This document shows positions 25,968 through 59,293 of a stretch of 64,000 bases of DNA, one piece after another; position 1 is the stretch's first letter; each line of letters begins with the position of its first letter. Source of the DNA: Alphaproteobacteria bacterium (GTDB taxonomy: Bacteria; Pseudomonadota; Alphaproteobacteria; Rs-D84); NCBI GenBank assembly GCA_033345195.1, contig JAWPOE010000008.1:112940-176939 (forward strand), given 5' to 3'. The position numbers were made by a program, and so were the translations under genes. The notes under the pieces were generated by a model. That model worked only from the letters and a program-made list of their open reading frames with translations, made no database searches and was not told the origin of the DNA.

Positions 25968-26336
25968 TTATTTACTTTCGGCGTTGTTAAATCGTTTCGC
26001 TGTATCAACCAATTTGATGAAGTTTGCATCGCCTGCATATGCCATTTCGGCCAAAACCTTGCGGTCCAGGGCAATACCAGCCTTTTTCAAGCCGTTCATA
26101 AACTGGCTGTAAGTCATACCATTTGCGCGCACAGCGGCGTTGATACGAACAATCCACAAACCACGAAATTCACGTTTTTTAACGCGACGGTCGCGATATG
26201 CATACTGTCCTGCCTTTTCCGTTTTTTCACGGGCGGCACGATATGTTGAATGATGACGGCCCAAATAACCCTTGGCACGCGCCAAAATCTTGTTATGTTT
26301 TTGTTTTACGGTTGTTCCGCGTTTTACTCTTGCCAT
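25968..26336 (-). CDS. rplT: 50S ribosomal protein L20
   Basis: MARVKRG...KILARAKGY... canonical bL20. Confidence 0.95.
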
Positions 26337-26349
26337 GACCTATACCCCC

Positions 26350-26553
26350 TTATTTCAAACCATATGGTGCCAGGATTTTTGCCTGTCCGACCATGTTATC
26401 GTTCAAATACTGTGGCTTTGCACCTGCCTTGTTTGCACGGGCAGATTTCTTGCGCAACAGTTTCTTGTGAGAGTTGCGTGCAACACGGATTTTACCAGTT
26501 GCGGTCATAGACGCACGTTTTTTTAAGTACGACTTTGTCTTTAATTTTGGCAT
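26350..26553 (-). CDS. rpmI: 50S ribosomal protein L35
   Basis: MPKLKTKS...KKR..TATGK start. Track ORF trimmed to the internal ATG. Confidence 0.9.
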   Translation of the reverse strand: MPKLKTKSYLKKRASMTATGKIRVARNSHKKLLRKKSARANKAGAKPQYLNDNMVGQAKILAPYGLK

Positions 26554-26693
26554 TTTATATCCTCTTGTTATTAGAATAAAATTACAGTCTGATGGCAATG
26601 CCTTGCCACTTTGACCGATGCAATTGTGACATAAATAAATGAAAAATCAAGTTTTTATTGAATATCTGACTTTTTAGGATTAAAGTAAGCGCG

Positions 26694-37127: not shown

Positions 37128-37424
37128 ATGAAACAACAAGTATTAAAAGCATTGGCAAATCCGGCACTGATTTTTTATGTGCCGTATTCACTGGCGGTTT
37201 TGAATTTTGCCATTCAATTTATTATTTTTATGGTGATTTTCTTTGTGTCCTTGGCGTTAACCAAGGGTAATAATCCGGTGCCACCATTATATTTTCTGAT
37301 TTCTGTTGTTGTTGTGCACTCTATAATCGCAGTGTTTGCAAAACGTGACCCACAGTTGGGACAAATTGTGTCGGCAAAAGTACAATTGTTTAAAAAGAAA
37401 ATACCAGGAAAATTAGCAGCATGA
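37128..37424 (+). CDS. virB3: Type IV secretion system protein VirB3
   Basis: About 98 aa, two TM segments, LANPALIFYVPYSLAVLNF motif similar to VirB3/RvhB3. Start codon overlaps the virB4 start. Confidence 0.75.
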   Translation: MKQQVLKALANPALIFYVPYSLAVLNFAIQFIIFMVIFFVSLALTKGNNPVPPLYFLISVVVVHSIIAVFAKRDPQLGQIVSAKVQLFKKKIPGKLAA

Positions 37425-39847: not shown

Positions 39848-39854
39848 TATATAA

Positions 39855-40466
39855 ATGTTAAAATATTTATTTCTGGTTTTATTTGTTCTGATTTCGTTGC
39901 CAGTGATGGCAGATTCTTGTTTAGAATACAAAAAGATGCCACGCGTTATTTTAAATACACCTGATTGGGAAAAAACAGTTGTTCAACCGCGTGTTCCAAT
40001 GGATTTATGGCATGGAAATGTTATCGCAACATTAACAGATAATTATGATATTGTTGTTGATATTAATCCAATTGATGATGGATTTTGTGTCGCATTAAAA
40101 ACGGTTGATGCGGTTGTTGGGTATAATGACTTTTTAGTTCAGATTGATATCAGGCATATCCCAGAAACATGTACGTATAATGCAGTGTTAAAACATGAAG
40201 ACAAGCATATAAAAACTTATTTATCTGTTATCGATGATTTTAAACCAGAATTACAACGGTCTATATTTTCAGCCGCAGATTCTGTAATGCCAATATTTGT
40301 TAAAACAAAAGATGATGTTGATAGGGCTGTTGATATGATTAATGCAGAATTTCAAGCACACCCTGATATGATTCTGATAAAACAAAAGATTAAGGCCGCC
40401 GAAGAAATAAAAAATAAACAAGTAGATCAGATTGAAACAGGGGATGATTTACGTAATTGTTTATAG
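39855..40466 (+). CDS. Secreted protein with an HExxH zinc-metalloprotease motif (LKHEDKHI), predicted secreted Zn-dependent protease family (COG5661/DUF922-like). 8 bp downstream of virB4.
   Basis: Signal peptide MLKYLFLVLFVLISLPVMA, HEDKH motif, about 200 aa. Confidence 0.5.
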   Translation: MLKYLFLVLFVLISLPVMADSCLEYKKMPRVILNTPDWEKTVVQPRVPMDLWHGNVIATLTDNYDIVVDINPIDDGFCVALKTVDAVVGYNDFLVQIDIRHIPETCTYNAVLKHEDKHIKTYLSVIDDFKPELQRSIFSAADSVMPIFVKTKDDVDRAVDMINAEFQAHPDMILIKQKIKAAEEIKNKQVDQIETGDDLRNCL

Positions 40467-40561
40467 TTTCTTTTAAGATTGTTTTCCTATATTTTTATAT
40501 GTTGCAAATGATGCATTTTTTCCGCTAATATCAAAATATAATATTAAGTAAGGATTTTGAT

Positions 40562-41449
40562 ATGAAAGGAATTATTTTAGCAGGGGGCAGTGGCAGCAGA
40601 CTTTATCCATTGACCAAAACAACATCAAAACAATTGTTGCCTGTATATGACAAGCCGATGATTTATTATCCTTTGTCGACATTGATGGCGTTTGGAATTC
40701 GCGATATTTTGATTATTTCAACACCCCAAGATACACCAAATATTGAAAAATTGTTCGGTGATGGGGCGAAAATTGGTCTGAATATTCAATATGCAATTCA
40801 ACCAGAACCAAAAGGTATTGCCCAGGCATTTACAATTGGGGCTGATTTTATTGGAAACGATGATGTATGTTTAATTCTGGGGGATAATATATTCTATATG
40901 GGGGGACAATTCCCAATGTTTATGGACGAGGTTGAAAAGAATACCGGTAAACGTGCAACAATTTTTGCATATCATGTTTCAGACCCAGAAAGATTTGGAG
41001 TGGTCGAATTTGATAAAGATTTAAAGGCAATTTCAATCGAAGAAAAACCAAAAAATCCAAAATCAAATTATGCATCGATCGGTTTATATTTTTATCCAGG
41101 TGATGTCGTTGAAAAGGCACGCGCATTAAAACCGTCGGCGCGTGGGGAACTGGAAATTACAGATTTAAATAATATGTATTTACGTGAAGGACGTATGTCT
41201 GTCGTTCCAATGCGACGGGGAAATGCGTGGCTGGATGCGGGTACACCAGACAGTCTGATGGAATCAGGACAATTTGTCCAAATTATTGAAAAACGACAGG
41301 GATTAAAGATTGCGTGTATCGAAGAAATTGCCTATAAGCAAGGTTTTATCAATGATATACAGATGCGTGCATTGATTGATGAATTAAAATCAGGGAATTA
41401 TAAAGATTATTTAGAAAAAGTGTACGGAGAGAAACATGAACTTTATTAA
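40562..41449 (+). CDS. rmlA: Glucose-1-phosphate thymidylyltransferase
   Basis: MKGIILAGGSGSRLYPLT... canonical RmlA. Confidence 0.9.
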   Translation: MKGIILAGGSGSRLYPLTKTTSKQLLPVYDKPMIYYPLSTLMAFGIRDILIISTPQDTPNIEKLFGDGAKIGLNIQYAIQPEPKGIAQAFTIGADFIGNDDVCLILGDNIFYMGGQFPMFMDEVEKNTGKRATIFAYHVSDPERFGVVEFDKDLKAISIEEKPKNPKSNYASIGLYFYPGDVVEKARALKPSARGELEITDLNNMYLREGRMSVVPMRRGNAWLDAGTPDSLMESGQFVQIIEKRQGLKIACIEEIAYKQGFINDIQMRALIDELKSGNYKDYLEKVYGEKHELY

Positions 41450-41987
41450 AACAGAAATTGATGGGGTTATTATTGTGGAACCGCGCGTGTTTACAGATGC
41501 GCGTGGGTACTTTTTCGAAAGTTATAATGCTGCAGAATTTGAAAAAAATGGTATTCCAAATGTTTTTGTCCAAGATAATCAATCAATGTCATCATATGGA
41601 GTTGTGCGCGGATTGCATTGTCAGACCGGTATTCATGCCCAGGCAAAGTTAGTGCGTGTTTTACATGGTGCTGTTCTGGATGTGGCGGTGGATATCAGAA
41701 AAAATTCGCCAACATTTGGTAAATATGTGGCGGTTGAATTAAGTGCAGAAAATAAAAGACAATTGTTCATACCACGTGGATTCTTGCATGGATTTTCTGT
41801 GTTAAGTGATACGGCGGTTTTTGCGTATAAATGTGATAATTTATATGCACCACATTCAGAATTTGGTATCAGGTTTGATGACCCAGATATTGGTGTCGAT
41901 TGGCGGGTGCCGGCAGATAAAATAATCGTTTCAGATAAAGATAAAATTGCCAAGGGGTTGAAAGATGTTCCTGATAACGGGTTGTAA
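41436..41987 (+). CDS. rmlC: dTDP-4-dehydrorhamnose 3,5-epimerase
   Basis: Cupin fold, RGLH motif region. Confidence 0.9.
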   Translation: MNFIKTEIDGVIIVEPRVFTDARGYFFESYNAAEFEKNGIPNVFVQDNQSMSSYGVVRGLHCQTGIHAQAKLVRVLHGAVLDVAVDIRKNSPTFGKYVAVELSAENKRQLFIPRGFLHGFSVLSDTAVFAYKCDNLYAPHSEFGIRFDDPDIGVDWRVPADKIIVSDKDKIAKGLKDVPDNGL

Positions 41988-42786
41988 TGGTCAATTGGGA
42001 CAAGAGCTGGCAAAATTATTGCCAGATGCAATTTGTGCAGATGTTAGCACACTTGATATAACAGATGAAATGGCGGTGCAGAATTTTGTGCGTGATAATA
42101 ATGTTGATGTAATTATTAACTGTGCGGCATATACCGCCGTGGATAAGGCAGAAGATGATATTGCGCTGGCAACAAAAATTAATGTTGATGGACCGCGAAA
42201 TCTGGCGAAAACAGGCGCAAAAATAATCCATATTTCAACAGACTATGTTTTTGATGGCAATGGTTGCAGACCATATGGCGCAGATGATGAAACAAATCCA
42301 GTGTCTGTTTATGGTAAAACAAAGCGTGCCGGTGAAGTTGCAGTTCTGGAAAACGCAGATATGGCGGTTGTTATCAGGACTGCCTGGTTATATTCGGTAA
42401 ATGGTAATAACTTTGTAAAAACAATGCGTCGATTGGGGGCGGAAAAAGATTCAATTAATGTTGTTGCCGACCAAATTGGAACACCAACATTTGCAGGAAA
42501 TCTGGCACAGGCGATTGTTAAGATTATTCCACAAATGACACATGAAAACAGTGGTATTTATCATTTCACAGATGAAGGCGTGTGTTCATGGTATGACTTT
42601 GCATGTGAAATTATGGAAATGTCGGGCTTGCATTGTATGGTAAATCCGATAAAATCAAGTCAATATCCAACGCGTGCATCACGACCATTTTATAGTGTAT
42701 TAGATAAAGATAAAATAAAACAGGTTTTTGGTGTTGAAATTAATCATTGGAAAAAGGGGTTAGAAAAATGTATAAAACAATTCTGA
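41965..42786 (+). CDS. rmlD: dTDP-4-dehydrorhamnose reductase
   Basis: Short-chain dehydrogenase-like, GCNGQLG N-terminus. Confidence 0.85.
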   Translation: MFLITGCNGQLGQELAKLLPDAICADVSTLDITDEMAVQNFVRDNNVDVIINCAAYTAVDKAEDDIALATKINVDGPRNLAKTGAKIIHISTDYVFDGNGCRPYGADDETNPVSVYGKTKRAGEVAVLENADMAVVIRTAWLYSVNGNNFVKTMRRLGAEKDSINVVADQIGTPTFAGNLAQAIVKIIPQMTHENSGIYHFTDEGVCSWYDFACEIMEMSGLHCMVNPIKSSQYPTRASRPFYSVLDKDKIKQVFGVEINHWKKGLEKCIKQF

Positions 42787-43775
42787 TAACAGGTGGGGCA
42801 GGTTTTATTGGTTCAAACTTTGTACCATATTTTTGTGAAAAATACCCAGAATATAAGATTATAAATCTGGATAAACTGACATATGCAGGGAATTTAGATA
42901 ATTTAAAAGAATGTGAAAACAGTTCTAATTATACCTTTGTCCAAGGTGATATTTGTGATGCGGAATTAATCGAAAAAATATTCAATGAATATGATGTTCG
43001 GGGTGTTATTCACTTTGCCGCAGAAAGTCATGTTGATAATTCTATAAAGGGTCCAGGTGCATTTATTAATACAAATATTGTTGGAACGTTTAATTTGTTG
43101 GATGCGGCGCGTCGTCACTGGATGGAAAAACCAGGTGTTGTTAAGTCGGGATATGAAAATGCGCGTTTTCATCATATTTCCACGGACGAAGTTTATGGTA
43201 CACTGGGTGATACAGGTATGTTCCGCGAAGATACACCATATGCACCAAACAGTCCATATTCTGCGTCCAAGGCATCATCTGATTTCTTGGTGCGTGCGTA
43301 TCATCATACATATGGCATGAATGTGACAACATCAAATTGTTCAAATAATTATGGACCAAAACAGCATAATGAAAAATTAATCCCACATATTATTGCCAAG
43401 GCATTATCACTGCAACCATTGCCAATTTATGGAACAGGTGAAAATATTCGTGACTGGTTATATGTTCTGGATCATTGCAAGGCAATTGATTTGATTTATC
43501 ATAATGGTAAGTCTGGTGAAACATATAATATTGGTGGGCGAAACGAAAGAAATAATATCACAATTGTAAAAACAATTTGTGCAATTTTAGATGAACGCAG
43601 ACCACGGGCAGACGGTAAAAAATATGAAGACTTAATTACCTTTGTTGCAGACCGCGCCGGACATGATTTCAGATATGCAATTGATGCGACTAAATTAGAA
43701 AATGAACTGGGGTGGCGGGCAGATGAAACGTTTGATACCGGTATTGTAAAGACGGTTGAATGGTACTTGAATTAA
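42768..43775 (+). CDS. rmlB: dTDP-glucose 4,6-dehydratase
   Basis: ILITGGAGFIGSNF, YxxxK. Start at the internal ATG (MYKTILITGG). Confidence 0.9.
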   Translation: MYKTILITGGAGFIGSNFVPYFCEKYPEYKIINLDKLTYAGNLDNLKECENSSNYTFVQGDICDAELIEKIFNEYDVRGVIHFAAESHVDNSIKGPGAFINTNIVGTFNLLDAARRHWMEKPGVVKSGYENARFHHISTDEVYGTLGDTGMFREDTPYAPNSPYSASKASSDFLVRAYHHTYGMNVTTSNCSNNYGPKQHNEKLIPHIIAKALSLQPLPIYGTGENIRDWLYVLDHCKAIDLIYHNGKSGETYNIGGRNERNNITIVKTICAILDERRPRADGKKYEDLITFVADRAGHDFRYAIDATKLENELGWRADETFDTGIVKTVEWYLN

Positions 43776-43819
43776 ACAAAAAAATATGGTATTATCACCG
43801 TATCAGAAAGGAGTTTTAG

Positions 43820-44185
43820 ATGAAAAAATTATTGTTAAAGTTAAATTTTGCAATTGTTGGTATTATGGCAACAAGTGTTGCAAAGGCAGCGGAGGCAGGT
43901 CTTAATATTAATACAAATGCATTGTGTGGTTTGTTTCAACAATTTGGTGGTATTTTTAAAGTATTGCGTACGCTGGCATTTGTTGGTGCGGCGTTTATTT
44001 TGGCAGGCTGGGCATGGGGCTGGATTTCCGGTGGCGAAGTAAAATTGGATGATGTCAAAAAGAAAGGTATTGGTATGTTGGTTGGTTTTGTCGTTCTGTT
44101 TGGCGTTGGTGCAATCGTGACCGTATTTATGAATATGGCGGGCGCTGGTGGTTCATTGGGTTGTGATATGAGTGACGTTTTCTAA
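43820..44185 (+). CDS. VirB2/TrbC-like T4SS pilin subunit
   Basis: 121 aa, signal peptide (..VAKA|AEA), two hydrophobic helices separated by a short loop, Gly-rich C-terminus. Architecture typical of VirB2/RvhB2 paralogs. Confidence 0.55.
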   Translation: MKKLLLKLNFAIVGIMATSVAKAAEAGLNINTNALCGLFQQFGGIFKVLRTLAFVGAAFILAGWAWGWISGGEVKLDDVKKKGIGMLVGFVVLFGVGAIVTVFMNMAGAGGSLGCDMSDVF

Positions 44186-44243
44186 AACCAAAATATAATA
44201 AAAGAATACGCGGATTATTCCGCGTTTTTTTGTTTTTATAAAA

Positions 44244-44816
44244 TTAAAATATATATCGTGCGCCAATTGAAAATTCAGACATTGTATGAAACAGTGTGTC
44301 GTTGATGGGTATATACTGATACTGTAATAACATTGATACATCGTCGCCGGGGAATGTAAACATAACACCAATGCCCAGACGGGTGGTGACGTTGTTTTCT
44401 GATTCTTTGGTTGATAATTCTTCGTATAAATTTATGTATTCGATTTTATTATAAACCTTGTAATTGCCAACACCGAATGATGTAAAGAAGTCAAAGTCGC
44501 GGTTTATATTATAATATGCGAATACGTCAAATCCGTATGCCATATAATAAATTTCATGATTTATTGAATCAAATGTCGATATATATTCCATGTCATTTGT
44601 GCTGGAATGGGTGAAAAATAATTCAACACCGAAATTATTGCCAATGCGTGCGCCGGCATTAATTGTCCCAGAATAATATCGATCGTCCAGTTCTGTGTCA
44701 ATTGTGTAATCCGCGATATTTAATCCGGCATCAATCCCAATATATGGCTTAAAATTTGAATATGCGTTTGTCGTACCGCATATCAGTACAGGTAATATAA
44801 AAAATAGTTTATTCAT
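44244..44816 (-). CDS. Outer-membrane beta-barrel protein (OmpA-like/Omp25/OmpW-type porin family), C-terminal Phe
   Basis: Signal peptide, alternating amphipathic beta-strand pattern, terminal ..YIF. Confidence 0.65.
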   Translation of the reverse strand: MNKLFFILPVLICGTTNAYSNFKPYIGIDAGLNIADYTIDTELDDRYYSGTINAGARIGNNFGVELFFTHSSTNDMEYISTFDSINHEIYYMAYGFDVFAYYNINRDFDFFTSFGVGNYKVYNKIEYINLYEELSTKESENNVTTRLGIGVMFTFPGDDVSMLLQYQYIPINDTLFHTMSEFSIGARYIF

Positions 44817-44932
44817 TATATTTGTCCCCAGTTATGTTTTTATTGTAGTATTTTAAATATCATACGCAAATGTATTTTGTAACAGATTGATTTTATGATA
44901 TAATAAATGAAAAAATAGTAGGAGATTTTGCA

Positions 44933-46747
44933 ATGGCAGAAAACAAAAAATTGAAATATATCAAGACAGCGCAGGATTTATCAGAATTTAATACATCTAT
45001 AAAAGAATATATAAATAGAGGTAAATCTTATTCTGAACTGATGGATTATGTTATAGACCCTGATTTTGATTTAGATTTGTTTTATAAATCACAGGGATAT
45101 TATGCGGAAAGTGATGATTTTTATGCTATGTATTTCAATTTGGTAAGTAATACAATATCTGGATTAAATAAAAAACAAAAGGATGAATTTGCAAATCGTC
45201 TGGGTGATTCTTTGAAATCTTATTGGGATTTGGTTTATATGTTCGGTGGTGCAGAAAAATGGAATAGGGATGATTTACAAAAAAGGGCGAAGTATTCGCC
45301 ATATAACATTGTTTTTCATGCAGCAGATAAAAGAGATTTGTTCCGAGATGAGGCATTCCTGTTCAAAAAAACAATATCGCCAGATAATCAGGTTTTATTA
45401 AGAAATTCTGGTTTTGTTAATCCTTATGAATATAATTTTTCAAATCAACGTATGCAAGATCCTAAGATAAGTATGCCGTTCTTGCCAAAAGGAAATACGC
45501 ATGGTTTATATGGAAATGATAAACATTTGTTTGAAAAATTCCAAAAAGATTTTGGATGGGCCTTTGATCCAAAGACTGCGTTCAAGAATGCGCAACATCC
45601 AAATGTTTTGTTTGATTTGCGTTCAGGCAAGATTCAGCCAAGTGTGGCAATGTCTGAATTGAATTCATCTGATTTTAAGTATATTATCCCAAAAAATGAT
45701 TTTAAAGATTTATCAGCAAGCGAGCTTTATGATATCTTGTCTGCGCGCGATGTTCGTTGGGAACAATGGCAGGTTGCGTCAATGATGGAAATGATTGTTG
45801 ACAAGTCGCCAGATGTTAATAATGAAGAATATCTGAATCAAATAATGGAAATCATTGTTGTTAATAATCAACTGTTTTTGAAAAAAACAGAAAATAACCA
45901 TAGATTATGGTTGAAAATAGAAGATAAATTTAAAAATATAGTGCAACAAAACAAGGCGTATGAAGAAAACTTGAAAGGTTCAATTGAGAAATTGCGCGCG
46001 GAAATCAAAGAAAAAGAATCTGATTTAAAACCGTTACAAGAAATGTTGTCTGTATTAAGGGATGAAAAAGAATCGTATGTGAGTCTGGAACGTCAACTGG
46101 AATCTTTTTCATATAGGGGAAGTGATTTTGTAAAGGAGAATGTGTCTGCGATAAAAAGAAATATAGATAATACAGTAAATGGTAAGTTTGATAGTATGGC
46201 ATTGCCAGAAAAACCATGGAAAATAATTGCCTTTCCAAAAGAGAAAAAAGAATATGAAGAACTTTGTGCATTGATTGCCAATGTTAATCAACGTAACGAG
46301 TATAGAAAAAACTGTCGTGATAATACATTTGGCGAACATGAATTTAATTTGACAGCAAAAATGAATGAACTTGGGTTAAAACAAAGAGAAGTAGAATTTG
46401 AAAGAAGCAGAAAAGCCGATGTTCTAAATCAACAAAGTTGGGATCAAAGAAGATTTTATGGTTCAGCAAAACGTATATCAGATAATCTTGAAAAAAATGT
46501 TAGCGACCAAAAACTTGCCAAGGCAGAGCGTATGCAACAAGCGCGGGAAAAACTGAAAGAAAAGGGTGTTGTGTTAGGACAGAAAAGTGGTGTGATAGAG
46601 GCTGATAAAAAAGCAGAAAAAATCATCTTTGATAAAGCAGTTGAAAAAATGATGAAAAAATTGCGTGCGACAACTGCAAACGCAAAAAAGTCAGACAAAG
46701 AACTGATGGAAATTGCAAAAAGATTGGTCACAGAAAATCAAAAATAA
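44933..46747 (+). CDS. Large (604 aa) soluble hypothetical protein with a C-terminal coiled-coil/charged region. No recognisable domain. Very AT-rich.
   Basis: Long intact ORF with good terminators on both sides; no signal peptide or TM. Confidence 0.6.
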   Translation: MAENKKLKYIKTAQDLSEFNTSIKEYINRGKSYSELMDYVIDPDFDLDLFYKSQGYYAESDDFYAMYFNLVSNTISGLNKKQKDEFANRLGDSLKSYWDLVYMFGGAEKWNRDDLQKRAKYSPYNIVFHAADKRDLFRDEAFLFKKTISPDNQVLLRNSGFVNPYEYNFSNQRMQDPKISMPFLPKGNTHGLYGNDKHLFEKFQKDFGWAFDPKTAFKNAQHPNVLFDLRSGKIQPSVAMSELNSSDFKYIIPKNDFKDLSASELYDILSARDVRWEQWQVASMMEMIVDKSPDVNNEEYLNQIMEIIVVNNQLFLKKTENNHRLWLKIEDKFKNIVQQNKAYEENLKGSIEKLRAEIKEKESDLKPLQEMLSVLRDEKESYVSLERQLESFSYRGSDFVKENVSAIKRNIDNTVNGKFDSMALPEKPWKIIAFPKEKKEYEELCALIANVNQRNEYRKNCRDNTFGEHEFNLTAKMNELGLKQREVEFERSRKADVLNQQSWDQRRFYGSAKRISDNLEKNVSDQKLAKAERMQQAREKLKEKGVVLGQKSGVIEADKKAEKIIFDKAVEKMMKKLRATTANAKKSDKELMEIAKRLVTENQK

Positions 46748-46819
46748 AAATAACCCGGGAAACCGGGTTTTATTGTTATAAAAGGTGTGGTATAATACCA
46801 TGTATAAAAGGGTTTTTAT

Positions 46820-47683
46820 ATGAAAGTTTTTAATAAAATTCGTGAATTAGATGGAACAAGAAAAATTTACTTTTGTGGTATAAAAATCATTAGTTATAAA
46901 CAGGCTGTGAAAAAGATAGATTTTTCATATGCTATTCTTAAATATAAAGGGGTAAATAAAGCAAAAAATTTAAAGAATTTAATTCTTGGGTCATCGCATG
47001 GACGTGACGGTTTTGTTCCTGGAAAATCAGATTTTAATTTGTCGCAATCGTCGCTTGATTTATACCGTATTTATCATTTATACAAATATGTGTTAAAAAA
47101 TAACGGAAAAAATCTTGAAAATATAATCGTTTTTTATTCCGTTTTTCATGCAGGATTACAACTTGAAAAAACCAGTAAGTGGAAATATTGCATAATATAC
47201 AAAACGTTATACGATATAAAATATGCGTTTCCATTGGCACTTGATGATTCTTATTTGGTAAATGAAATAAACGGGCAAATAGATACAGTGTCTTGTCCAG
47301 ATGATTTTCGTGGTAAATCTGATAATTATGAAAATAAATATGAATCAGATGCAAAAATACTTGTTGAAAAACATCTTAAAAATACGTGCAGAAATAATAA
47401 TCAAATAAAATACCTGGCCAAATTGGTTGATATGGCACGGAAACATAAACAAAATGTTTATGTTGTTTTGCCACCATATCGTTCGGACTATTTAAAACAT
47501 TTGCCAGAACAACAGGTTGTTTTTAGGGAATTGTTCGAATTTTTAGACAAAAACAAAGATGTAAAATTGTTAAATTTACAAGATGATAAAGATTTTATAG
47601 ATTCCGATTTTAATTCTGTTGATCATTGCAGCGAAGACGGTGGAATAAAACTTACCAAAAAAATAAAAAAAGCATTAAAATAA
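46820..47683 (+). CDS. Hypothetical protein, possibly SGNH/GDSL-like hydrolase (GSSHG near the N-terminus, D-H near the C-terminus). Very AT-rich.
   Basis: Intact 287-aa ORF followed by a terminator hairpin ACACCacaaGGGGGTGT plus T-run. Confidence 0.5.
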   Translation: MKVFNKIRELDGTRKIYFCGIKIISYKQAVKKIDFSYAILKYKGVNKAKNLKNLILGSSHGRDGFVPGKSDFNLSQSSLDLYRIYHLYKYVLKNNGKNLENIIVFYSVFHAGLQLEKTSKWKYCIIYKTLYDIKYAFPLALDDSYLVNEINGQIDTVSCPDDFRGKSDNYENKYESDAKILVEKHLKNTCRNNNQIKYLAKLVDMARKHKQNVYVVLPPYRSDYLKHLPEQQVVFRELFEFLDKNKDVKLLNLQDDKDFIDSDFNSVDHCSEDGGIKLTKKIKKALK

Positions 47684-47699
47684 AAACACCACAAGGGGG

Positions 47700-47814
47700 T
47701 GTTTTTATTAAGGCCCGCCTATGCCAAGGCTACGGCGAGGCACTGAATTTTCTAAACAAAAATACCGCAAAAGCGGTATTTTTAGAAAATTCGTGGTTGC
47801 GGGGAATGGATTTG
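47700..47814. repeat. Direct repeat copy A (115 bp): downstream flank plus the 3' 21 nt of tRNA-fMet, without the rest of the tRNA
   Basis: Near-identical to 47952..48066. Contains the terminator ATACCGCaaaaGCGGTAT and ends with tggttgcggggaatggatttg (3' end of tRNA-fMet, minus orientation). Confidence 0.85.
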
Positions 47815-47951
47815 GCTGCGCACCAACTGCGCAAATCAACCTTTGGTTGACCGGCATACTGCCGTCTGCCTTTTGCTGGTTGTGAACCATCTTTGTTCAA
47901 TGGTTCAAATCCAACACAACACACGTTTAAATAAAAAATGCATCACAAGGA

Positions 47952-48045
47952 TGTTTTTATTAAGGCCCGCCTATGCCAAGGCTACGGCGAGGCACTGAAT
48001 TTTCTAAACAAAAATACCGCAAAAGCGGTATTTTTAGAAAATTCG

Positions 48046-48066
<21 letters not shown>
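47952..48066. repeat. Direct repeat copy B (115 bp), contiguous with the intact tRNA-fMet
   Basis: See copy A. Confidence 0.85.
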
Positions 48067-48122
<56 letters not shown>

Positions 48123-48270
48123 ATAAGGTGTGTGCATTATATAGGACTATTTATGTATAGTCAATAAAAAAATGTTTTTTCTGTTTTTTATGATGTTTTT
48201 CCTGGTCTGTCTTGAATTATCTAATTTTTGTTGCTAAGATTTGCAAAAGTATAAAATATAAGGGTTTGTC

Positions 48271-50924: not shown

Positions 50925-51341
50925 ATGAAAAAAATTTTTGCGTTGATGTTGGTTTTGGTGTCTGTTGCGTCATGTGGCGGTATGATTAAAAACGAAAATG
51001 GCAGTCAGTATATTACACAACTAGAAGCAGAACCAATTGGATGTACTTTCTTGTATAAACTGGAATCAGAGGTTTCGGTATATGATGCAGATGATGCGCG
51101 CAGATATTTGGAAAATCGTATCGCAGATCAGGCGCGTCCAGGCAATGCATATTGGATTACCAGTCAACGTACAAAACCAAATGAATGGGTAATCTTTGGT
51201 CCAGAACGTGCATTTGTTTTGGTTGCAAATGTTTATGATTGTCCACATCCAAATAATGTTCGTACTGCAAAAGATGGTGGCACGGCGACAGTATCTGTGC
51301 CGGTCGTTTATGACGGATGTACGTATGGAACGTGTTATTAA
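50925..51341 (+). CDS. Small Cys-rich lipoprotein (lipobox VASC), unknown function
   Basis: Signal peptide plus lipobox, 6 Cys, then a terminator TCCCCaaccGGGGA plus T-run. Confidence 0.55.
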   Translation: MKKIFALMLVLVSVASCGGMIKNENGSQYITQLEAEPIGCTFLYKLESEVSVYDADDARRYLENRIADQARPGNAYWITSQRTKPNEWVIFGPERAFVLVANVYDCPHPNNVRTAKDGGTATVSVPVVYDGCTYGTCY

Positions 51342-51381
51342 AAAAATCCCCAACCGGGGATTTTTTTAATAGGTAATCTTT

Positions 51382-51411
51382 GTGAAAGTGTTTGCCATGG
51401 ATTGGGATTTT
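51382..51411 (+). promoter_or_regulatory. Sigma70-type promoter: -35 TTGCCA (51382-51387), 18-bp spacer, extended -10 TGtTATAAT (51403-51411). Drives the pilus/T2SS-like operon.
   Basis: Near-consensus hexamers with TGn, about 25 bp upstream of the first gene. Confidence 0.6.
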
Positions 51412-51435
51412 GTGTTATAATCATAAAGAATGTAA

Positions 51436-52713
51436 TTGAGAGAGAATTTTTTGACCGGAAAAATATTATCTGTTAATCGTAGAAAGTATGCCGTCGGATT
51501 GTTTTGGCAACCGTTGGGTGCAGGGTTTGTGCCACGAAATTATGCGCGTACATTGGCAAAAAATGTTGATAAAAAATTAAATCTGTATGTTGATTATCGT
51601 TCGATGATTGGGTTGGGATCGCGACGGTTCGGCCAGCATGTCGGTATGTTAAGCGCAGCGGCAGAAATTATGGAAAGTTTTTCCGAGTATACTTCTTTCT
51701 TGGCAGTGTTTCAGACGGGAAAATGTTTTTATCTGGTTGCAGCACGTAATGGGATTATTTTAGAAGATAAAATTTTTGATTCCGAAGATGCAGCGCGTGC
51801 AGAATATGCAAAATTATCCGAAATTCCAGATTGGGGTGCGTTCTTTGCACCTGGAACATGGGCGATGCCGCGTGCCGCAGAAAGAAATCTGGCTGATTTA
51901 TTAAATGGTCATTCGCATGCAAGTCTGCATTCAATCAGTCATGTCAGAACTTGGACTTTTTCACTGGTTTTATTTGGTGTGTTTTTGCTGATGGTGTTTG
52001 GGGTTTTTAGTGATTCTTTTAAATTGGTGTTTGCGCCCAGACCAAAAACAACAGAATTAGACCCGGAATTGGTTGCAGAATATAAACGACAAATCGAAGA
52101 AAAAAATAAAGAACTGGACAAGCAATTTGAAATTGAAAAACAGCAGCCACCAGAACCAATTGTTATGCCGTATGAATTGTTGCCTGATGTCCAGGCGCGT
52201 GCAAAACAGTGTTATCAGGCGATTGGATTTTTAATGCAACCAATTGTTGGTTGGAACCAGGTTAATGTTGATTGTGGCGAGATACATGCAATTGCCGAAT
52301 TTAGACGTGACTTTGGAACGTTAGGTGAGTTTTATAATATTGCAACACAGTTGATGCCGGGTGCATTCGTGCAAGAAGTTAATGATGATACATTGCGTGT
52401 TCAGGTTGCCTTGCCAAAGTTGGAAATCTTTTCGTCCCAAGATGAACGCGATGCAGAAACAGTCGTGCGTGACATTGTGACTGCGTTTCAGGGTATAGAT
52501 ATGTCGGTTGAAACCAATATTGTGACAGATTCACTGACCAACGGTGTTGATGTGGCGAATGTTAATGTTGTTGAAATTGCGGCGGAATCAAAACTGGTGC
52601 CGATGCAGTTTATGCAAATATTTGAAGAATTTGGCGGTGTCTATATGGTGCAATGTGCATGGGATGTGGCGTCGCGTACATGGAACTATGAGGTGATTAT
52701 CTATGCAAAATAA
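51436..52713 (+). CDS. Bitopic inner-membrane protein, GspL/PilO(type IVb)-like assembly-platform component: cytoplasmic N-domain about 185 aa, single TM, periplasmic C-domain about 220 aa
   Basis: Architecture: single TM WTFSLVLFGVFLLMVFGVF in the middle. N-terminus KILSVNRRKYAVGLFWQPL resembles GspL N-termini. Lies first in an operon with a GspE-like ATPase and GspF-like platform. By my hand count the TTG start may be 51426, about 10 nt from the track coordinate. Confidence 0.45.
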   Translation: MRENFLTGKILSVNRRKYAVGLFWQPLGAGFVPRNYARTLAKNVDKKLNLYVDYRSMIGLGSRRFGQHVGMLSAAAEIMESFSEYTSFLAVFQTGKCFYLVAARNGIILEDKIFDSEDAARAEYAKLSEIPDWGAFFAPGTWAMPRAAERNLADLLNGHSHASLHSISHVRTWTFSLVLFGVFLLMVFGVFSDSFKLVFAPRPKTTELDPELVAEYKRQIEEKNKELDKQFEIEKQQPPEPIVMPYELLPDVQARAKQCYQAIGFLMQPIVGWNQVNVDCGEIHAIAEFRRDFGTLGEFYNIATQLMPGAFVQEVNDDTLRVQVALPKLEIFSSQDERDAETVVRDIVTAFQGIDMSVETNIVTDSLTNGVDVANVNVVEIAAESKLVPMQFMQIFEEFGGVYMVQCAWDVASRTWNYEVIIYAK

Positions 52714-53404
52714 AAAAATGTTTTTATTAGGTACAGTTTTTTGTGGGCTGATGATGGTTTTTGGTGGCGCATTCGCCGCAGATGATATTGTCGTCGAAGA
52801 AGAAGTTATTGTCGAAGATGTTGATTTAGAACAGGTGTCGGCCGATGCCGTCGCAAATTACGATGTGTCTGGGTCTTTGTTTCAACAGATTACTGATTTG
52901 GAACAAGAAAAAATATTAATGCAGTTGGAGAAAGAACGTGCACAGTTGGACCTGGAACTGGATAGACTGGCCGCAGAAAAAATTAAACTGCATATGGAAA
53001 TTGATACTTTGTCTGGACGCCAGGAACAGCAACAGCAAGAAATTGAAACACAAAAAGCAAAACTGGAAGCAGAGGCGGCACGTATCGAAAAAGAAAAGGA
53101 AAGTTGGCTGGCCGAGGCTGAAAAGAAAGCAACTGCGCGTGTTGCAAGCGATAAAAGACCAACAGAAGATGGTGCAGAACCAGAAATTGATATTACAAAA
53201 AAATATCGTCTGGTTAATGTTATTGGTGCAGGTTCACAATTACAGGCAACAATCGAAGACCTGAATACAGGGCAAAGTAAACGTATCAGCGTTGGCCGTG
53301 ATATAGACGGTTTGGTCGTTAAGTCTATTTCGTTGTACGATGGTGTTGTGTTTGTTGGGTCTGATGGTATGACACAAAATCTGAATGTCAGTGGTGGAAG
53401 ATAA
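52703..53404 (+). CDS. Periplasmic/IM-anchored coiled-coil protein with a C-terminal PilP/GspC-HR-like beta domain
   Basis: N-terminal signal/anchor, long EQ-rich coiled coil, C-terminal LVNVIGAGSQLQATIEDLNTGQSKRISVGRDIDGLVVKSISLYDGVVFV resembling the PilP/GspC secretin-interacting domain. Confidence 0.4.
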   Translation: MQNKKMFLLGTVFCGLMMVFGGAFAADDIVVEEEVIVEDVDLEQVSADAVANYDVSGSLFQQITDLEQEKILMQLEKERAQLDLELDRLAAEKIKLHMEIDTLSGRQEQQQQEIETQKAKLEAEAARIEKEKESWLAEAEKKATARVASDKRPTEDGAEPEIDITKKYRLVNVIGAGSQLQATIEDLNTGQSKRISVGRDIDGLVVKSISLYDGVVFVGSDGMTQNLNVSGGR

Positions 53405-53407
53405 AAA

Positions 53408-55036
53408 ATGGTTCGTTCAAAAGAATCTTTGGAAGATATCAGCAAGTTGCCATCAATACCGGCAGGTATGGAAAATGGTGACAGCAAGGATATAATTGAT
53501 TATCTGTTCGCGAATGGTAATAAATTGCTGACTGCGACAGGTGCAATGTTGGAACTGCCCCGTGATTCACAGAGCTTAATTGCGTATTTTGCAGGTGGTG
53601 AAATTATTATTTCGCGTACGCATCGTTATGATGGGCGTGTGTTGGCGTTCTTGGATTTGTTGGCGCGTCGTGGGCGACCAATGCGTGAACCGTTTTATTC
53701 TGATTTGGGTTTGGTTTCGAATATTTATAAATCGCATGAAATGCGCTTGGGCGGTGGTGCGCGTTCACGCATAGATTTTGATAACCAAATGCAGAAAGAT
53801 TTTGTCGATATTATTGCCAAGGCCGCATCGCATAAGGTTTCAGACGTTCATATAGAGGTTGCAGACCAAACAACAATCTATTTCCGTGTCGATGGCAGTA
53901 TGCAACCAGTGCTGGAATATAATTCACAGTGGGGTGAATCGTTTGTTCGTGCCGCATTTGCATCGGCAGATATGTCAAATGCAAACTATGCCCAGAATGA
54001 ATATCAATCTGCACAGAAAGATGGACGTACCCCATTACGTGGAACCAAGGATTTATATTTGCCGTCTGGTGTATTGGGTGTGCGTATGCAATTTAACCCA
54101 ATCGCATTTGGCAGTCGGTATGTGGTTATGCGACTGTTGTATGATAACCCGTCCGAAGGTATTAAAATTGAACAGGAATTTGGCCCATATGAACAACGTT
54201 TGTTGGCACGTATGCGTTCGTTCCCAACAGGATTGGTGATTGTTGCCGGTCCAACCAGTTCTGGTAAATCAACAACATTGGTGCGTAATATGTCGCTGAT
54301 GTTAAAAGAACGTAATTATGAAATTAATATGATTACGGTGGAAAACCCTGTTGAACAAAAGATTTTTGGCGCACGTCAAATGCCGGTGGTAAATACAACA
54401 AACGAAGAACAACGCGAAGAAAAGTATGTAGAGGCGTTGGCAGCGGCGTTAAGAAGTGACCCTGATACATTGATGGTGGGCGAAATTCGAACATTGGCGG
54501 CGGCACAATTAACAGTGCGTGGTGCGCTGTCCGGACATAATGTGTGGACGACATTGCATGCGAATTCTGCCATGGCGGCGTTAACGCGTTTGTTAGATTT
54601 GGGTATCGAACCTTTTAAATTAAAAGAAGAAACATTGATGCGTGGTTTGGTGTCGATGCGACTGTTTAAAAAAGTTTGTCCGTATTGTCGTGAACCGTTG
54701 GCAAATCATCCAGAACGTGGCGCGTATCGTCGCGTTATGGGGGCGTATGGTGAAATTGGTCTGCGTCAGGTTTATCAGCGTGGTACGGGGTGTGAACACT
54801 GTAATGGGACAGGGCATTTGGGACGTATCAAGGCCGGTGAAATTATCATTACAAACAGTGAATTTTTACGTCTGGCATTATCTGGTAATACAGATGGGGC
54901 TGTGCGATATTGGCTGGAAGAAATGGATGGGCGCACGTTAAAGGAATCTGCGACATCATTAATGTTACAGGGAATTATCAGTGTTGATGAATTAGAACGC
55001 TGGGTTGGACAGTTGAATCAACCAGGGGTTTATTAA
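53408..55036 (+). CDS. GspE/PilB/PilQ-family secretion ATPase (type II secretion / type IV pilus assembly ATPase)
   Basis: Walker A GPTSSGKST, Asp/His boxes (LMVGEIR...TLHAN), C-terminal tetracysteine CPYC...CEHC typical of GspE/PilB. Confidence 0.85.
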   Translation: MVRSKESLEDISKLPSIPAGMENGDSKDIIDYLFANGNKLLTATGAMLELPRDSQSLIAYFAGGEIIISRTHRYDGRVLAFLDLLARRGRPMREPFYSDLGLVSNIYKSHEMRLGGGARSRIDFDNQMQKDFVDIIAKAASHKVSDVHIEVADQTTIYFRVDGSMQPVLEYNSQWGESFVRAAFASADMSNANYAQNEYQSAQKDGRTPLRGTKDLYLPSGVLGVRMQFNPIAFGSRYVVMRLLYDNPSEGIKIEQEFGPYEQRLLARMRSFPTGLVIVAGPTSSGKSTTLVRNMSLMLKERNYEINMITVENPVEQKIFGARQMPVVNTTNEEQREEKYVEALAAALRSDPDTLMVGEIRTLAAAQLTVRGALSGHNVWTTLHANSAMAALTRLLDLGIEPFKLKEETLMRGLVSMRLFKKVCPYCREPLANHPERGAYRRVMGAYGEIGLRQVYQRGTGCEHCNGTGHLGRIKAGEIIITNSEFLRLALSGNTDGAVRYWLEEMDGRTLKESATSLMLQGIISVDELERWVGQLNQPGVY

Positions 55037-55038
55037 GC

Positions 55039-56112
55039 ATGATAACAAAAATTGAATTATTATATGCAAAACTGATGTTCCGTACAAATACGGAAAAACG
55101 TATGTCGATTTGTCGAAAATTGGCGTCGTTGTTGCGCAATGATTTTACGTTGATTGATGCGCTGGAACGTCTGGAAATGATTGAATCGAAAAATGGAACG
55201 AAACCGCGTGAACCGTTTGCAATTGTTATGCGCCAGTGGCAAAAAAACCTGGAACGTGGTATGAGTTTTTCAGAGGCAACACGTGGTTGGGTGCCACCCG
55301 AAGAAACGTTGTTGGTGACATCTGGAAATCTATCAAATTTAGTTGTTGCGCTGGAAAATGTCGGTCGTGTTGTTGATGGTACACAACGTATCAGACGTGC
55401 CATGACAACGGCGATTGCCTATCCGTTATTTTTGTTGGCACTGACGTTTGGTATAATTATTATGGTGGGCGTTTATCTGGTTCCACCATTGGCCGAGGTT
55501 GCAGGAAATCAAGTCGTATGGCGTGGGTCGGCACGCTCTTTGGTTTTGTTGTCTGATTTTTCGATAAAGTATTGGTATTATTTTGTGGTTGTTTTTGCGT
55601 CAATCGTCGCGATTGTTTGGGTGTCGTTGGCAAATTGGTCGGGGCGTATTCGTGCCATGTTTGATAAATTGCCACCATGGAATGTTTATAAGCTTCAGGT
55701 TTCTGTGGGTTGGTTAATGTCATTGGGGGCAATGGTCAGTGCCGGTGTGACAATTCCAGACGCAATTCGTATGTTGGCAGATAATGCAAATAAATATCTG
55801 CGTAAAATATTGGAATCTGCATTGCGATTTATTGCAAATGGTGACAATCTGGGGGTTGCATTGCAGAAAACAAATCGTGATTTTCCAGAAGCCGAGATTA
55901 TTGGCGACTTAACGATTTATGCCGATATGAATGGTTTTGATGAAAACTTAAATCAGATTGCGAATGATTATTTGAATGAGTCTGTACGTAAAATGGAAAA
56001 GATTTCAAATACATTGAACAGTGTTGGTATTTTGTTGGTATCCGCGATTATCGCATGGGTTGTGCTGGGGACGTTCCAGATGCAAGACCAGATTACATCA
56101 GCACTAACGTAA
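55039..56112 (+). CDS. GspF/PilC/PilR-family inner-membrane platform protein (two T2SSF repeats)
   Basis: Two repeats with the T2SSF consensus (..SLLRNDFTLIDALERL.. and ..GVTIPDAIRMLADNA..FPE..). 357 aa with 3 TM regions. Confidence 0.8.
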   Translation: MITKIELLYAKLMFRTNTEKRMSICRKLASLLRNDFTLIDALERLEMIESKNGTKPREPFAIVMRQWQKNLERGMSFSEATRGWVPPEETLLVTSGNLSNLVVALENVGRVVDGTQRIRRAMTTAIAYPLFLLALTFGIIIMVGVYLVPPLAEVAGNQVVWRGSARSLVLLSDFSIKYWYYFVVVFASIVAIVWVSLANWSGRIRAMFDKLPPWNVYKLQVSVGWLMSLGAMVSAGVTIPDAIRMLADNANKYLRKILESALRFIANGDNLGVALQKTNRDFPEAEIIGDLTIYADMNGFDENLNQIANDYLNESVRKMEKISNTLNSVGILLVSAIIAWVVLGTFQMQDQITSALT

Positions 56113-56142
56113 AAAATAAATATAATAATTCATCTAAAAATA

Positions 56143-56197
56143 AATTGGGAATCTCATGTAGCGACATGTACACTACGATTCCCAATTTGTTTTTATC
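56143..56197 (+). terminator. Rho-independent terminator: 12-bp stem AAATTGGGAATC/GATTCCCAATTT with a 22-nt loop (containing an ACATGTA repeat), then GTTTTTAT
   Basis: Perfect inverted repeat followed by a T-run, directly after the platform gene. Confidence 0.65.
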
Positions 56198-56249
56198 TAA
56201 ATCATTCTATTTATTTTTTTATCCCACTGCTGGGGGTGGGGTAGATTTT

Positions 56250-59293
<3,044 letters not shown>

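What the first reader, a model, noticed from the sequence alone, without database searches (positions are those of the whole stretch)
51382..56200. Orphan type IVb-pilus / T2SS-like assembly core (L/O-like, P/C-like, E ATPase, F platform) with no pilin, secretin or prepilin peptidase
Four co-oriented, tightly packed genes behind a near-consensus sigma70 promoter: a bitopic GspL/PilO-like protein (425 aa), a coiled-coil protein with a PilP/GspC-HR-like C-domain (233 aa), a GspE/PilB-family ATPase with a C-terminal tetracysteine (542 aa), and a GspF/PilC platform protein (357 aa). Gene order and sizes mirror the pilO-pilP-pilQ-pilR core of IncI1 R64-type type IVb thin-pilus loci, and the GspL-C-E-F logic of T2SS. 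The locus is flanked by a small lipoprotein upstream and a strong terminator downstream. No (pseudo)pilin, secretin or peptidase is in the window. Either the remaining parts are scattered elsewhere, as the T4SS genes are in this genome, or this is a reduced or novel minimal machine. Unexpected if the host is a Rickettsiales-like endosymbiont.
Basis: partly seen in the sequence, partly recalled or inferred. Interest (0 to 1): 0.72.

Follow-up and report, generated by a model that had tools for sequence, protein, structure and literature searches.

The report
Split type IVb pilus assembly core
These four genes are the inner-membrane motor and scaffold of a type IVb pilus in a tiny-genome gut bacterium (Candidatus Enterousia); in relatives the pilins and outer-membrane pore lie elsewhere on the chromosome, so it is a split version of a known machine, not an orphan or new one.

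Summary
Four tightly packed co-oriented genes (51451-56112) sit behind a near-consensus promoter, and the window holds no pilin, secretin or prepilin peptidase.

The identifications are also correct:
- a PilP-family protein (60/60 orthologues hit TIGR03021);
- a BfpD-like extension ATPase with a tetracysteine motif;
- a PilC/GspF platform.

The host is not a Rickettsiales endosymbiont. It is Candidatus Enterousia (order Rs-D84), an uncultured gut alphaproteobacterium with a genome under 1 Mb.

"Orphan" is misleading. Relatives encode a type IVb pilin (fold closest to CofA/TcpA), three PilV-like minor pilins, and a TcpQ plus PilN-type secretin pair, each at separate chromosomal sites. An outgroup keeps TcpQ-secretin-O-P-ATPase-platform contiguous.

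The cassette is intact in 84/84 loci, vertically inherited and under strong purifying selection (dN/dS 0-0.14).

Three points stay open. No prepilin peptidase was found anywhere. The secretin is detected far less often than the other parts. The missing modules were not shown in this exact genome.

Verdict: a dispersed chromosomal variant of a known system, of moderate interest.

The parts
51335..51372 (+). Terminator-like hairpin after the lipoprotein gene; it insulates the cassette from the lpxK-lpxC-lipoprotein unit
   Evidence: 17-pair stem followed by a T-run. The lipoprotein never moves with the cassette in rearranged loci.
51392..51421 (+). Promoter-like site TTGCCA-18 nt-TATAAT with an extended -10 TG (11/12 match)
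   Evidence: best-scoring site in 50.8-56.9 kb. It is a consensus match only and has not been shown to function.
51451..52713 (+). pilO2-like gene (420 aa; alternative TTG start at 51436 gives 425 aa). Bitopic protein with a cytoplasmic actin-like domain, one TM helix (~164-185) and a periplasmic domain built of repeated alpha-beta-beta units
52703..53404 (+). pilP-like gene (233 aa): signal peptide, a nearly invariant coiled coil (aa ~56-130), a variable linker, and a conserved C-terminal beta domain
   Evidence: TIGR03021 pilP_fam scores 28.3 bits for the window copy (cut-off 34.65), but 60/60 orthologues match, best E=6.7e-12. The outgroup protein in the same position scores 42.1 bits. Conservation profile.
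53408..55036 (+). Type IVb pilus extension ATPase (PilQ2/BfpD-like, 542 aa) with Walker A, Walker B, His box and a CPYC...CEHC tetracysteine
   Evidence: T2SSE 207.7 bits. Best solved relative is BfpD at 269 bits over aa 34-527, against GspE 166 and PilB/PilF 137-159. Motifs. 82-100% identical across the genus; dN=0 against dS=0.18 versus RGIG4147.
55039..56112 (+). Inner-membrane platform protein (PilR2/PilC/GspF family, 357 aa, two T2SSF domains, about 4 TM-like segments)
   Evidence: PF00482, two matched stretches, 98.5 bits. 32% identical to the platform of the Bosea pilO2 cluster. TM scan.
56218..56245 (+). Terminator-like hairpin plus T-run closing the four-gene unit, shared with the convergent orf189

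Best explanation
The four genes form the inner-membrane and cytoplasmic assembly core of a chromosomal type IVb pilus of the PilO2/PilN/TcpQ (R64 thin-pilus / Tfp7 / Bfp-like) kind, in a Candidatus Enterousia (Rs-D84) gut bacterium. Proposed mechanism, inferred from the homologous Bfp, T2SS and R64 systems: the hexameric BfpD-like ATPase docks on the cytoplasmic actin-like domain of the bitopic PilO2-like protein and on the PilC-type platform. ATP-driven movement of the platform lifts pilin subunits out of the inner membrane into the growing filament. The periplasmic domains of PilO2 and the PilP-like protein link the platform to the outer-membrane secretin. The rest of the machine is encoded elsewhere: a 152-aa type IVb major pilin in the dnaX operon, three ~400-450-aa PilV-like minor pilins with two accessory genes, and a TcpQ plus PilN-type lipoprotein secretin pair. 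These four genes correspond to the last four of the six main genes of a contiguous cluster (TcpQ-secretin-O-P-ATPase-platform) still seen in an outgroup. The TcpQ-secretin pair was separated early in this order, and the cassette has since been inherited vertically. Most likely use (inference only): a non-retractile or PilT-independent adhesive filament for contact with partner cells or host surfaces, suiting the partner-dependent lifestyle proposed for these organisms. DNA uptake is the main functional alternative.
Against: None of the off-window modules was demonstrated in the window's own genome or in its closest NCBI relative (RGIG4147, locus-tag prefix IJY99). Where relatives carry the pilin module after nusA-lpxD-fabZ, the window has gidA. 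No A24 prepilin peptidase, PilT-type ATPase or lytic transglycosylase was found in ~1.7 Mb of held Enterousia DNA. Secretin relatives are about 15-fold rarer than PilO relatives and occur only on short contigs. Identity to reference systems is low (PilO2 23-28%, ATPase 33-36%). Function (adhesion versus DNA uptake) is wholly inferred.
Confidence: 0.8

Rival explanations
1. A truly reduced, secretin-less and/or peptidase-less minimal machine. In this reading the O-P-ATPase-platform core in this genome works without a dedicated outer-membrane channel or pilin processing, for example as a periplasmic piston or by using another outer-membrane conduit.
For: No secretin, pilin or peptidase in the 64-kb window. 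Secretin relatives are ~15-fold rarer than PilO relatives and occur only on short contigs. No A24 peptidase in any held DNA. The PilP-like protein has an unusual, nearly invariant coiled-coil extension.
Against: The pilin module is abundant (1254 clusters) and co-resident with the cassette on several contigs. A secretin is present on the same contig as the cassette in L066 and is contiguous with it in the outgroup. The pilins carry a class-III signal that implies a peptidase. Only a small fraction of any one genome was examined.
Confidence: 0.08
2. A type II secretion system (GspL-C-E-F logic) that assembles a pseudopilus to push folded proteins out, not a surface pilus.
For: The best NCBIfam hits for the ATPase and platform are GspE and GspF. 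The PilO2 fold also resembles GspL. NCBI names some of the pilins 'type II secretion system protein'.
Confidence: 0.06
3. The same type IVb pilus, but its main role is DNA uptake (natural competence or nucleotide scavenging), not adhesion.
For: dprA lies 2-3 kb from the secretin in L066, L090 and L092. The genomes are extremely reduced with poor biosynthesis (PMC12306168), so DNA would be a useful nutrient.
Against: No PilT-type retraction ATPase, ComEC or ComEA was seen in held DNA. Three large PilV-like minor pilins point to tip adhesins. The dprA linkage may be coincidental in a compact genome.
Confidence: 0.2
4. A conjugation-associated thin pilus, as in IncI1 R64 or PAPI-1, carried on a mobile element and working with the VirB-type T4SS genes in the window.
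For: The closest named families are R64-type (PilO2, PilP, PilN, PilV). virB3 and virB4 lie ~11.6 kb upstream in the window and only ~3.3 kb upstream in L097.
Against: The cassette is embedded between lpxC and gyrB, is syntenic across lineages down to 43% PilO identity, has the same GC as its flanks, and has no integrase, relaxase or shufflon nearby. It is core-genome-like and present in 232 species representatives.
Confidence: 0.07
5. A decaying relic of a once complete operon, no longer functional.
For: It is separated from the other parts, in a lineage undergoing genome reduction.
Against: All four ORFs are intact in 84/84 loci. dN/dS is 0.00-0.14. The ATPase is 100% identical at dS=0.18.
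Confidence: 0.01

Closest known systems
R64 thin-pilus variant of type IVb pili (IncI1 R64 pilI-V; P. aeruginosa PAPI-1 pilL2-M2; B. pseudomallei Tfp7)
   Same: Same O2-P2-Q2(ATPase)-R2(platform) gene order. PilO2 (PF06864) has an actin-like N-domain. PilP falls in TIGR03021. The genus has a PilN-type secretin with a TcpQ-family partner (as in Tfp7) and PilV-like large minor pilins (PMC3984277).
   Different: It is chromosomal and vertically inherited among housekeeping genes, not on a plasmid or ICE. It is split into at least three loci. PilO2 is only 23-28% identical. PilP carries a ~75-residue invariant coiled coil. There are three PilV paralogues instead of a shufflon. No PilU peptidase, PilT lytic transglycosylase, PilL/PilM or PilT2 ATPase was found. 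The pilin has Arg at +1.
Bundle-forming pilus of EPEC (BfpC-BfpD-BfpE)
   Different: About 33% identity. The Bfp operon is plasmid-borne and contiguous, and includes BfpF (retraction), BfpP (peptidase) and BfpB (secretin), none of which sits beside this cassette.
Toxin-coregulated pilus and CFA/III (Tcp/Cof) type IVb pili
   Different: The pilin is much smaller (152 aa against ~200) with a short leader. The assembly proteins are PilO2/PilP-type, not TcpR/D/S-type.
Type II secretion system GspL-GspE-GspF(-GspC) subcomplex
   Same: Analogous architecture: a bitopic protein with an actin-like cytoplasmic domain and a ferredoxin-like periplasmic domain, a tetracysteine ATPase, a polytopic platform, and a periplasmic connector to the secretin.
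   Different: All Gsp family scores fall far below their cut-offs. There is no GspM, GspC-PDZ or GspG-K. The pilin and secretin are of type IVb kind.
Contiguous TcpQ-PilN-PilO2-PilP-ATPase-platform cluster of an uncultured 'Rickettsiales bacterium' MAG (JGI 3300042597; L094)
   Same: Closest complete-core relative found. It is chromosomal, lies among dnaN/dnaJ/gyrB/uvrB, and has the same gene sizes and order. Its PilP passes the TIGR03021 cut-off and its secretin matches the PilN family.
   Different: PilO is only 32% identical. TcpQ and the secretin are still attached, whereas in the window's lineage they are detached. Its PilP is shorter (208 aa).

Membership tests
Type IVb pilus, PilO2-type (R64 thin pilus / Tfp7 variant) | PilO2 protein (PF06864): bitopic, with a cytoplasmic actin-like ATPase-fold domain | tested here: met
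Type IVb pilus, PilO2-type (R64 thin pilus / Tfp7 variant) | PilP-family periplasmic protein encoded directly after pilO2 | tested here: met
   The window copy scores 28.3 bits, below the 34.65 cut-off. However, 60/60 orthologues match TIGR03021 (best E=6.7e-12), and the outgroup protein in the same position scores 42.1 bits.
Type IVb pilus, PilO2-type (R64 thin pilus / Tfp7 variant) | GspE-superfamily extension ATPase (PilQ2/BfpD-like) with a zinc tetracysteine, followed by a PilC/GspF-type platform | tested here: met
   T2SSE 207.7 bits and T2SSF with two matched stretches. BfpD is the best PDB hit at 269 bits. CPYC/CEHC and the Walker motifs are present.
Type IVb pilus, PilO2-type (R64 thin pilus / Tfp7 variant) | PilN-type (lipoprotein) secretin, with a TcpQ/PilL-type partner | tested here: inconclusive
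   Absent from the window. Present in the genus: L066 (same contig as the cassette), L089 (TcpQ plus a secretin with a lipobox N-terminus), L090 and L092. TIGR02520 scores ~251 bits against a 287.65 cut-off. Not shown in this genome, and detections are sparse.
Type IVb pilus, PilO2-type (R64 thin pilus / Tfp7 variant) | Type IVb major pilin and a PilV-like minor pilin | tested here: inconclusive
   Absent from the window. In the genus there is a 152-aa pilin whose fold is closest to CofA, TcpA and PilS, plus three PilV-like proteins. It is co-resident with the cassette on one verified contig. Not shown in this genome.
Type IVb pilus, PilO2-type (R64 thin pilus / Tfp7 variant) | Dedicated A24 prepilin peptidase (PilU). 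It is absent from some variants, which borrow PilD | tested here: inconclusive
   None was found in the window or in ~1.7 Mb of held related DNA, by motif scan and by phmmer with an E. coli type IVb A24 peptidase. Whole genomes could not be searched.
Type IVb pilus, PilO2-type (R64 thin pilus / Tfp7 variant) | Carried on a conjugative plasmid or ICE and serving conjugation (the typical context, not strictly defining) | tested here: not met
   The cassette sits between lpxC and gyrB in a context conserved down to 43% PilO identity. There are no mobility genes and the GC equals that of the flanks.
Type II secretion system | GspE, GspF and GspL at equivalog level, plus GspM, GspC, GspD and pseudopilins GspG-K | tested here: not met
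Tad/Flp pilus (CpaF-TadB-TadC) | CpaF/TadA-type ATPase without a tetracysteine, two single-domain platform proteins TadB and TadC, and a Flp pilin | tested here: not met
   The TadA-family model scores only 31 bits. There is a single 357-aa platform with two T2SSF domains, a tetracysteine is present, and the pilin is 152 aa with a globular head.
Type IVa pilus (PilB-PilC-PilMNOPQ-PilT) | PilB equivalog, separate PilM, PilN and PilO (PF04350), PilQ secretin, PilT retraction ATPase | tested here: not met

The most novel reading that the evidence does not exclude
In most Enterousia lineages, possibly including this one, the type IVb core works without its ancestral PilN secretin and without a canonical A24 peptidase. 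In that case the nearly invariant PilP coiled coil would take over the envelope-spanning role. This would be a secretin-independent type IV filament machine in a diderm bacterium, kept as a key organelle of a partner-dependent lifestyle.
Probability: 0.1. Interest if true: 0.75.

Novelty: new variant of a known kind. Interest (0 to 1): 0.42.

Why it matters
Candidatus Enterousia and the order Rs-D84 are widespread, uncultured gut Alphaproteobacteria with genomes under 1 Mb. They lack respiration and much of glycolysis and are thought to depend on partner organisms. The published genome survey reports no flagella and does not mention pili for them (PMC12306168).

Such a genome still keeps a complete-looking type IVb pilus toolkit, with a motor as conserved as GyrB. 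That marks the pilus as a probable core organelle, and a concrete candidate for how these cells attach to partners or host surfaces or take up DNA. Type IV pili play that role in episymbiotic Saccharibacteria (PMC9894109).

The finding also shows a PilO2-type type IVb system, usually a contiguous plasmid or ICE operon, living as a vertically inherited chromosomal system split among housekeeping genes. A contiguous outgroup documents the likely ancestral state.

For annotation pipelines, this is a case where an "incomplete system" call would be wrong.

Tried and rejected
- **Exact look-up of the 425-aa protein** found nothing. The database form is 420 aa.
- **Profile searches of PilO-like and PilP-like against PDB sequences** gave only marginal BfpC/PilO2Bp hits, or coiled-coil noise.
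- **An HMM of Enterousia PilP** did not detect the Bosea protein in the PilP position.
- **Linking modules to the window's closest NCBI relative:** I tried to tie pilin or secretin genes to RGIG4147 through its locus-tag prefix IJY99. None of the named hits carries it.
- **A24 peptidase searches** by GxGDxK motif with hydrophobicity, by phmmer with an E. coli type IVb peptidase, and by TM scan of unannotated window ORFs were all negative.
- **The upstream lipoprotein and downstream orf189 as system parts:** rejected, because they stay with lpxC and gyrB respectively when the cassette is relocated.
- **Rejected readings:** T2SS, Tad, T4a, mobile-element and pseudogene (see the membership tests and rival explanations).
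- **Literature searches** for Enterousia, Rs-D84, and type IVb pili in Rickettsiales found no prior description.
Full report
**1. The observation**

The window contains four co-oriented, tightly packed ORFs: 51436/51451-52713, 52703-53404, 53408-55036 and 55039-56112. They encode proteins of 425/420, 233, 542 and 357 aa, with an 11-nt overlap and then gaps of 3 and 2 nt.

A terminator-like hairpin (51335-51372) follows the upstream lipoprotein gene. The best promoter-like site of the region lies at 51392-51421: TTGCCA, 18 nt, TATAAT, with an extended TG, an 11/12 match. A second hairpin with a T-run (56218-56245) closes the unit. The number of promoter-like sites in the region is not above shuffles, so the promoter is a consensus match only.

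The first gene more likely starts at 51451. That TTG is preceded by GAGAGAG, and database orthologues are 420 aa.

Pfam scans of essentially all other ORFs in the window found only housekeeping genes, plus virB3/virB4 and an rml operon. Six-frame prepilin motif scans found nothing, and neither did searches with reference type IVb parts. The window therefore holds no pilin, secretin or prepilin peptidase.

**2. What the four proteins are**

- **Protein 2** scores just under the TIGR03021 (pilP_fam) cut-off on its own (28.3 against 34.65). All 60 of 60 orthologues match the model, best E=6.7e-12. The outgroup protein in the same position passes the cut-off at 42.1 bits. It has a signal peptide, a coiled coil that is almost invariant across the genus (aa ~56-130), a variable linker and a conserved beta domain.
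- **Protein 3** is a GspE-superfamily ATPase with Walker A, Walker B, a His box and CPYC...CEHC. Its best solved relative by a wide margin is BfpD, the type IVb extension ATPase: 269 bits over aa 34-527, against GspE 166 and PilB/PilF 137-159.
- **Protein 4** is a PilC/GspF-type platform with two T2SSF domains.

Annotated type IVb clusters on a Bosea megaplasmid and an E. coli plasmid have the same O2-P-ATPase-platform order. In both it is preceded by TcpQ and a secretin and followed by a PilT-like ATPase, pilins and, in E. coli, an A24 peptidase. Identities to those systems are low: PilO2 23-28%, ATPase 33-36%, platform 32%.

**3. The organism**

A scan of species-representative genomes found relatives in 232 species. 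Nearly all are MAGs titled Candidatus Enterousia sp. or Alphaproteobacteria bacterium, from ruminant, equine, avian and human guts.

NCBI taxonomy places the genus in Alphaproteobacteria incertae sedis. GTDB puts it in order Rs-D84. Its genomes are under about 1 Mb and lack the TCA cycle, respiration and parts of glycolysis, and a partner-dependent lifestyle has been proposed. That paper reports no flagella and mentions type IV pili only for a different lineage (PMC12306168).

The host is therefore not a Rickettsiales endosymbiont, although some MAGs are labelled 'Rickettsiales'.

**4. Conservation and context**

The four genes are together and intact in all 84 fetched loci. About 67 loci share the window's context: DUF374-lpxK-lpxC-lipoprotein | O-P-ATPase-platform | orf189(-)-gyrB. 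About 15 have the cassette relocated. In those, the lipoprotein stays with lpxC and orf189 stays with gyrB, so neither belongs to the system.

The ATPase is 82-100% identical across the genus, comparable with GyrB. PilO is 59-89% identical and PilP 51-92%.

dN/dS against four relatives is 0.00-0.14 for all four genes. Against RGIG4147 the ATPase has dN=0 at dS=0.18.

An exhaustive search of 1.84 billion representatives finds only 371 relatives of the PilO2-like protein. They form a smooth series of ~420-aa proteins from 50% down to ~30% identity, before classical PilO2 proteins appear at ~25%. The named intermediates are 'PilO2 [Alphaproteobacteria / Rickettsiales bacterium]'.

Lineages at 50% and 43% identity already have the window's layout and context.

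**5. Where the missing parts are**

- **Pilin module.** Some relocated loci (L040, L047, L061) carry a module about 2 kb upstream of the cassette. It has dnaX, then a 152-aa protein with a class-III signal (MKxESG|RS[LM]IE), a hydrophobic helix and a C-terminal Cys pair, then an OmpA-family lipoprotein. On the opposite strand are three 400-450-aa proteins with pilin-like N-termini, a zinc-ribbon/DUF3426 membrane protein and a small secreted protein.
- **Pilin abundance and co-residence.** The pilin family has 1254 database clusters. In GCA_045635825.1 the cassette (lpxC context) and this module lie ~85 kb apart on one contig.
- **Secretin module.** A secretin lies 9 kb upstream of the cassette in L066. 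Its relatives occur as TcpQ(PF10671)-secretin in L089, where the N-terminus carries a lipobox. They also occur as secretin-S20-plsY-dprA in L090 and L092. The best family is the PilN type IVB secretin, ~251 bits against ~100 for MshL.
- **Contiguous outgroup.** In an outgroup MAG (PilO 32% identical; 126-kb contig) the genes TcpQ, secretin, PilO2, PilP, a 52-aa ORF, ATPase and platform are contiguous among dnaN, dnaJ, gyrB and uvrB.

The window cassette therefore corresponds to the last four of the six main genes of that cluster. The TcpQ-secretin pair was detached before the Enterousia-like radiation.

**6. What remains open**

None of the off-window modules could be shown in the window's own genome or in its closest annotated relative. 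Where relatives carry the pilin module after nusA-lpxD-fabZ, the window has gidA.

No A24 peptidase, PilT-type ATPase or lytic transglycosylase was found in about 1.7 Mb of held Enterousia DNA.

Secretin relatives number only 65 clusters, all on contigs of 11.5 kb or less and often truncated at contig ends. That is roughly 15-fold fewer than PilO relatives. This could reflect loss in many lineages or an assembly problem. I could not search whole genomes, so a secretin-less or peptidase-less state is not excluded, and I give it about 0.1.

**7. Mechanism**

What is shown: the identities, folds, order, conservation and co-occurrence described above.

What is inferred from the homologous Bfp, T2SS and R64 systems (PMC3984277 and established knowledge of type IV filament machines):
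- the ATPase hexamer docks on the PilO2 N-domain and the platform;
- the platform transfers pilins from the membrane into the filament;
- the PilO2 and PilP periplasmic domains connect to the PilN secretin, which TcpQ helps to localise;
- the PilV-like proteins prime or tip the filament as adhesins.

The biological role is an inference. Adhesion to partner cells or host surfaces is favoured, by analogy with episymbiotic Saccharibacteria (PMC9894109). DNA uptake is the main alternative, given the dprA linkage.

**8. Comparison and novelty**

The system works like, and by its tested features belongs to, the PilO2-type type IVb pili (R64 thin pilus / Tfp7 / Bfp-related). It differs in these respects:
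- it is chromosomal, vertically inherited and dispersed into at least three loci among housekeeping genes;
- its PilP has an invariant coiled-coil extension;
- it has three PilV paralogues and no shufflon;
- its pilin is small, with Arg at +1;
- no PilT, PilU or lytic transglycosylase has been identified.

T2SS, Tad and T4a memberships were tested and not met.

No description of this system in Enterousia or Rs-D84 was found in the searchable literature. NCBI's pipeline does already name the individual proteins.

I rate it a new variant of a known kind, with interest about 0.4.

Noticed in passing
window 40500-48200: This stretch has low GC (0.32-0.38, against ~0.40 around it). It holds rmlA-C-D-B, a small TM protein, an OMP beta-barrel, unknown 604-aa and 287-aa proteins, and tRNA-Met. 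It is absent between the virB4-linked gene and DUF374 in the syntenic locus L097. It is probably an inserted surface-polysaccharide island at the tRNA gene.
   Followed up: partly
window 37128-40466: Isolated T4SS genes virB3 and virB4, plus a secreted 203-aa protein, with no other vir genes nearby. The same dnaG-ychF-sufBD-virB3-virB4 synteny occurs in L097, where it lies only ~3.3 kb upstream of the pil cassette.
   Followed up: partly
window 52868-53092 (PilP-like aa ~56-130): This coiled-coil segment is almost invariant across species whose PilO is only ~60% identical. It is more conserved than the ATPase. Its partner and the reason for the constraint are unknown.
   Followed up: partly
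window 51451-53404 versus L005/L030: pilO and pilP are only 89-92% identical to the nearest relatives and have higher dS (0.54-0.75), with one exception: pilP versus L005 has dS 0.23. The adjacent ATPase is 99-100% identical (dS 0.18-0.35). This may reflect local recombination or allele replacement.
   Followed up: partly
window 56250-56819 (-): A 189-aa ORF with no family hit is highly conserved (79-98% identity, dN/dS 0.02-0.06). It always travels with gyrB, not with the pil cassette.
   Followed up: partly
window ~26300-26700: The cumulative GC skew reaches its minimum here and the coding strand switches from minus to plus. This is a candidate replication origin or terminus.
   Followed up: no
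L066:1-839, L089:8748-11286, L090:1864-3192, L092:1-753: Secretin-bearing contigs are all short and often break inside or next to the secretin gene. The secretin C-domain is 96% identical between L066 and L090, although the flanking dprA is only 62% identical. dprA lies 2-3 kb from the secretin.
   Followed up: partly
L002:9849-10328, L003:6661-7029: A DUF559 (endonuclease-like) gene sits between the platform gene and orf189 in close relatives but is absent from the window.
   Followed up: no
window 29964-30817: An 854-nt stretch with no ORF of 80 aa or more in my simple gene call, and no Rfam or tRNA hit, lying between the PBP2 gene and topA.
   Followed up: no
L086:2982-3970 (-): Two conserved accessory genes end the minor-pilin cluster: a zinc-ribbon/DUF3426 membrane protein (175 aa) and a secreted 154-aa protein. 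Neither has a counterpart in reference type IVb systems.
   Followed up: no
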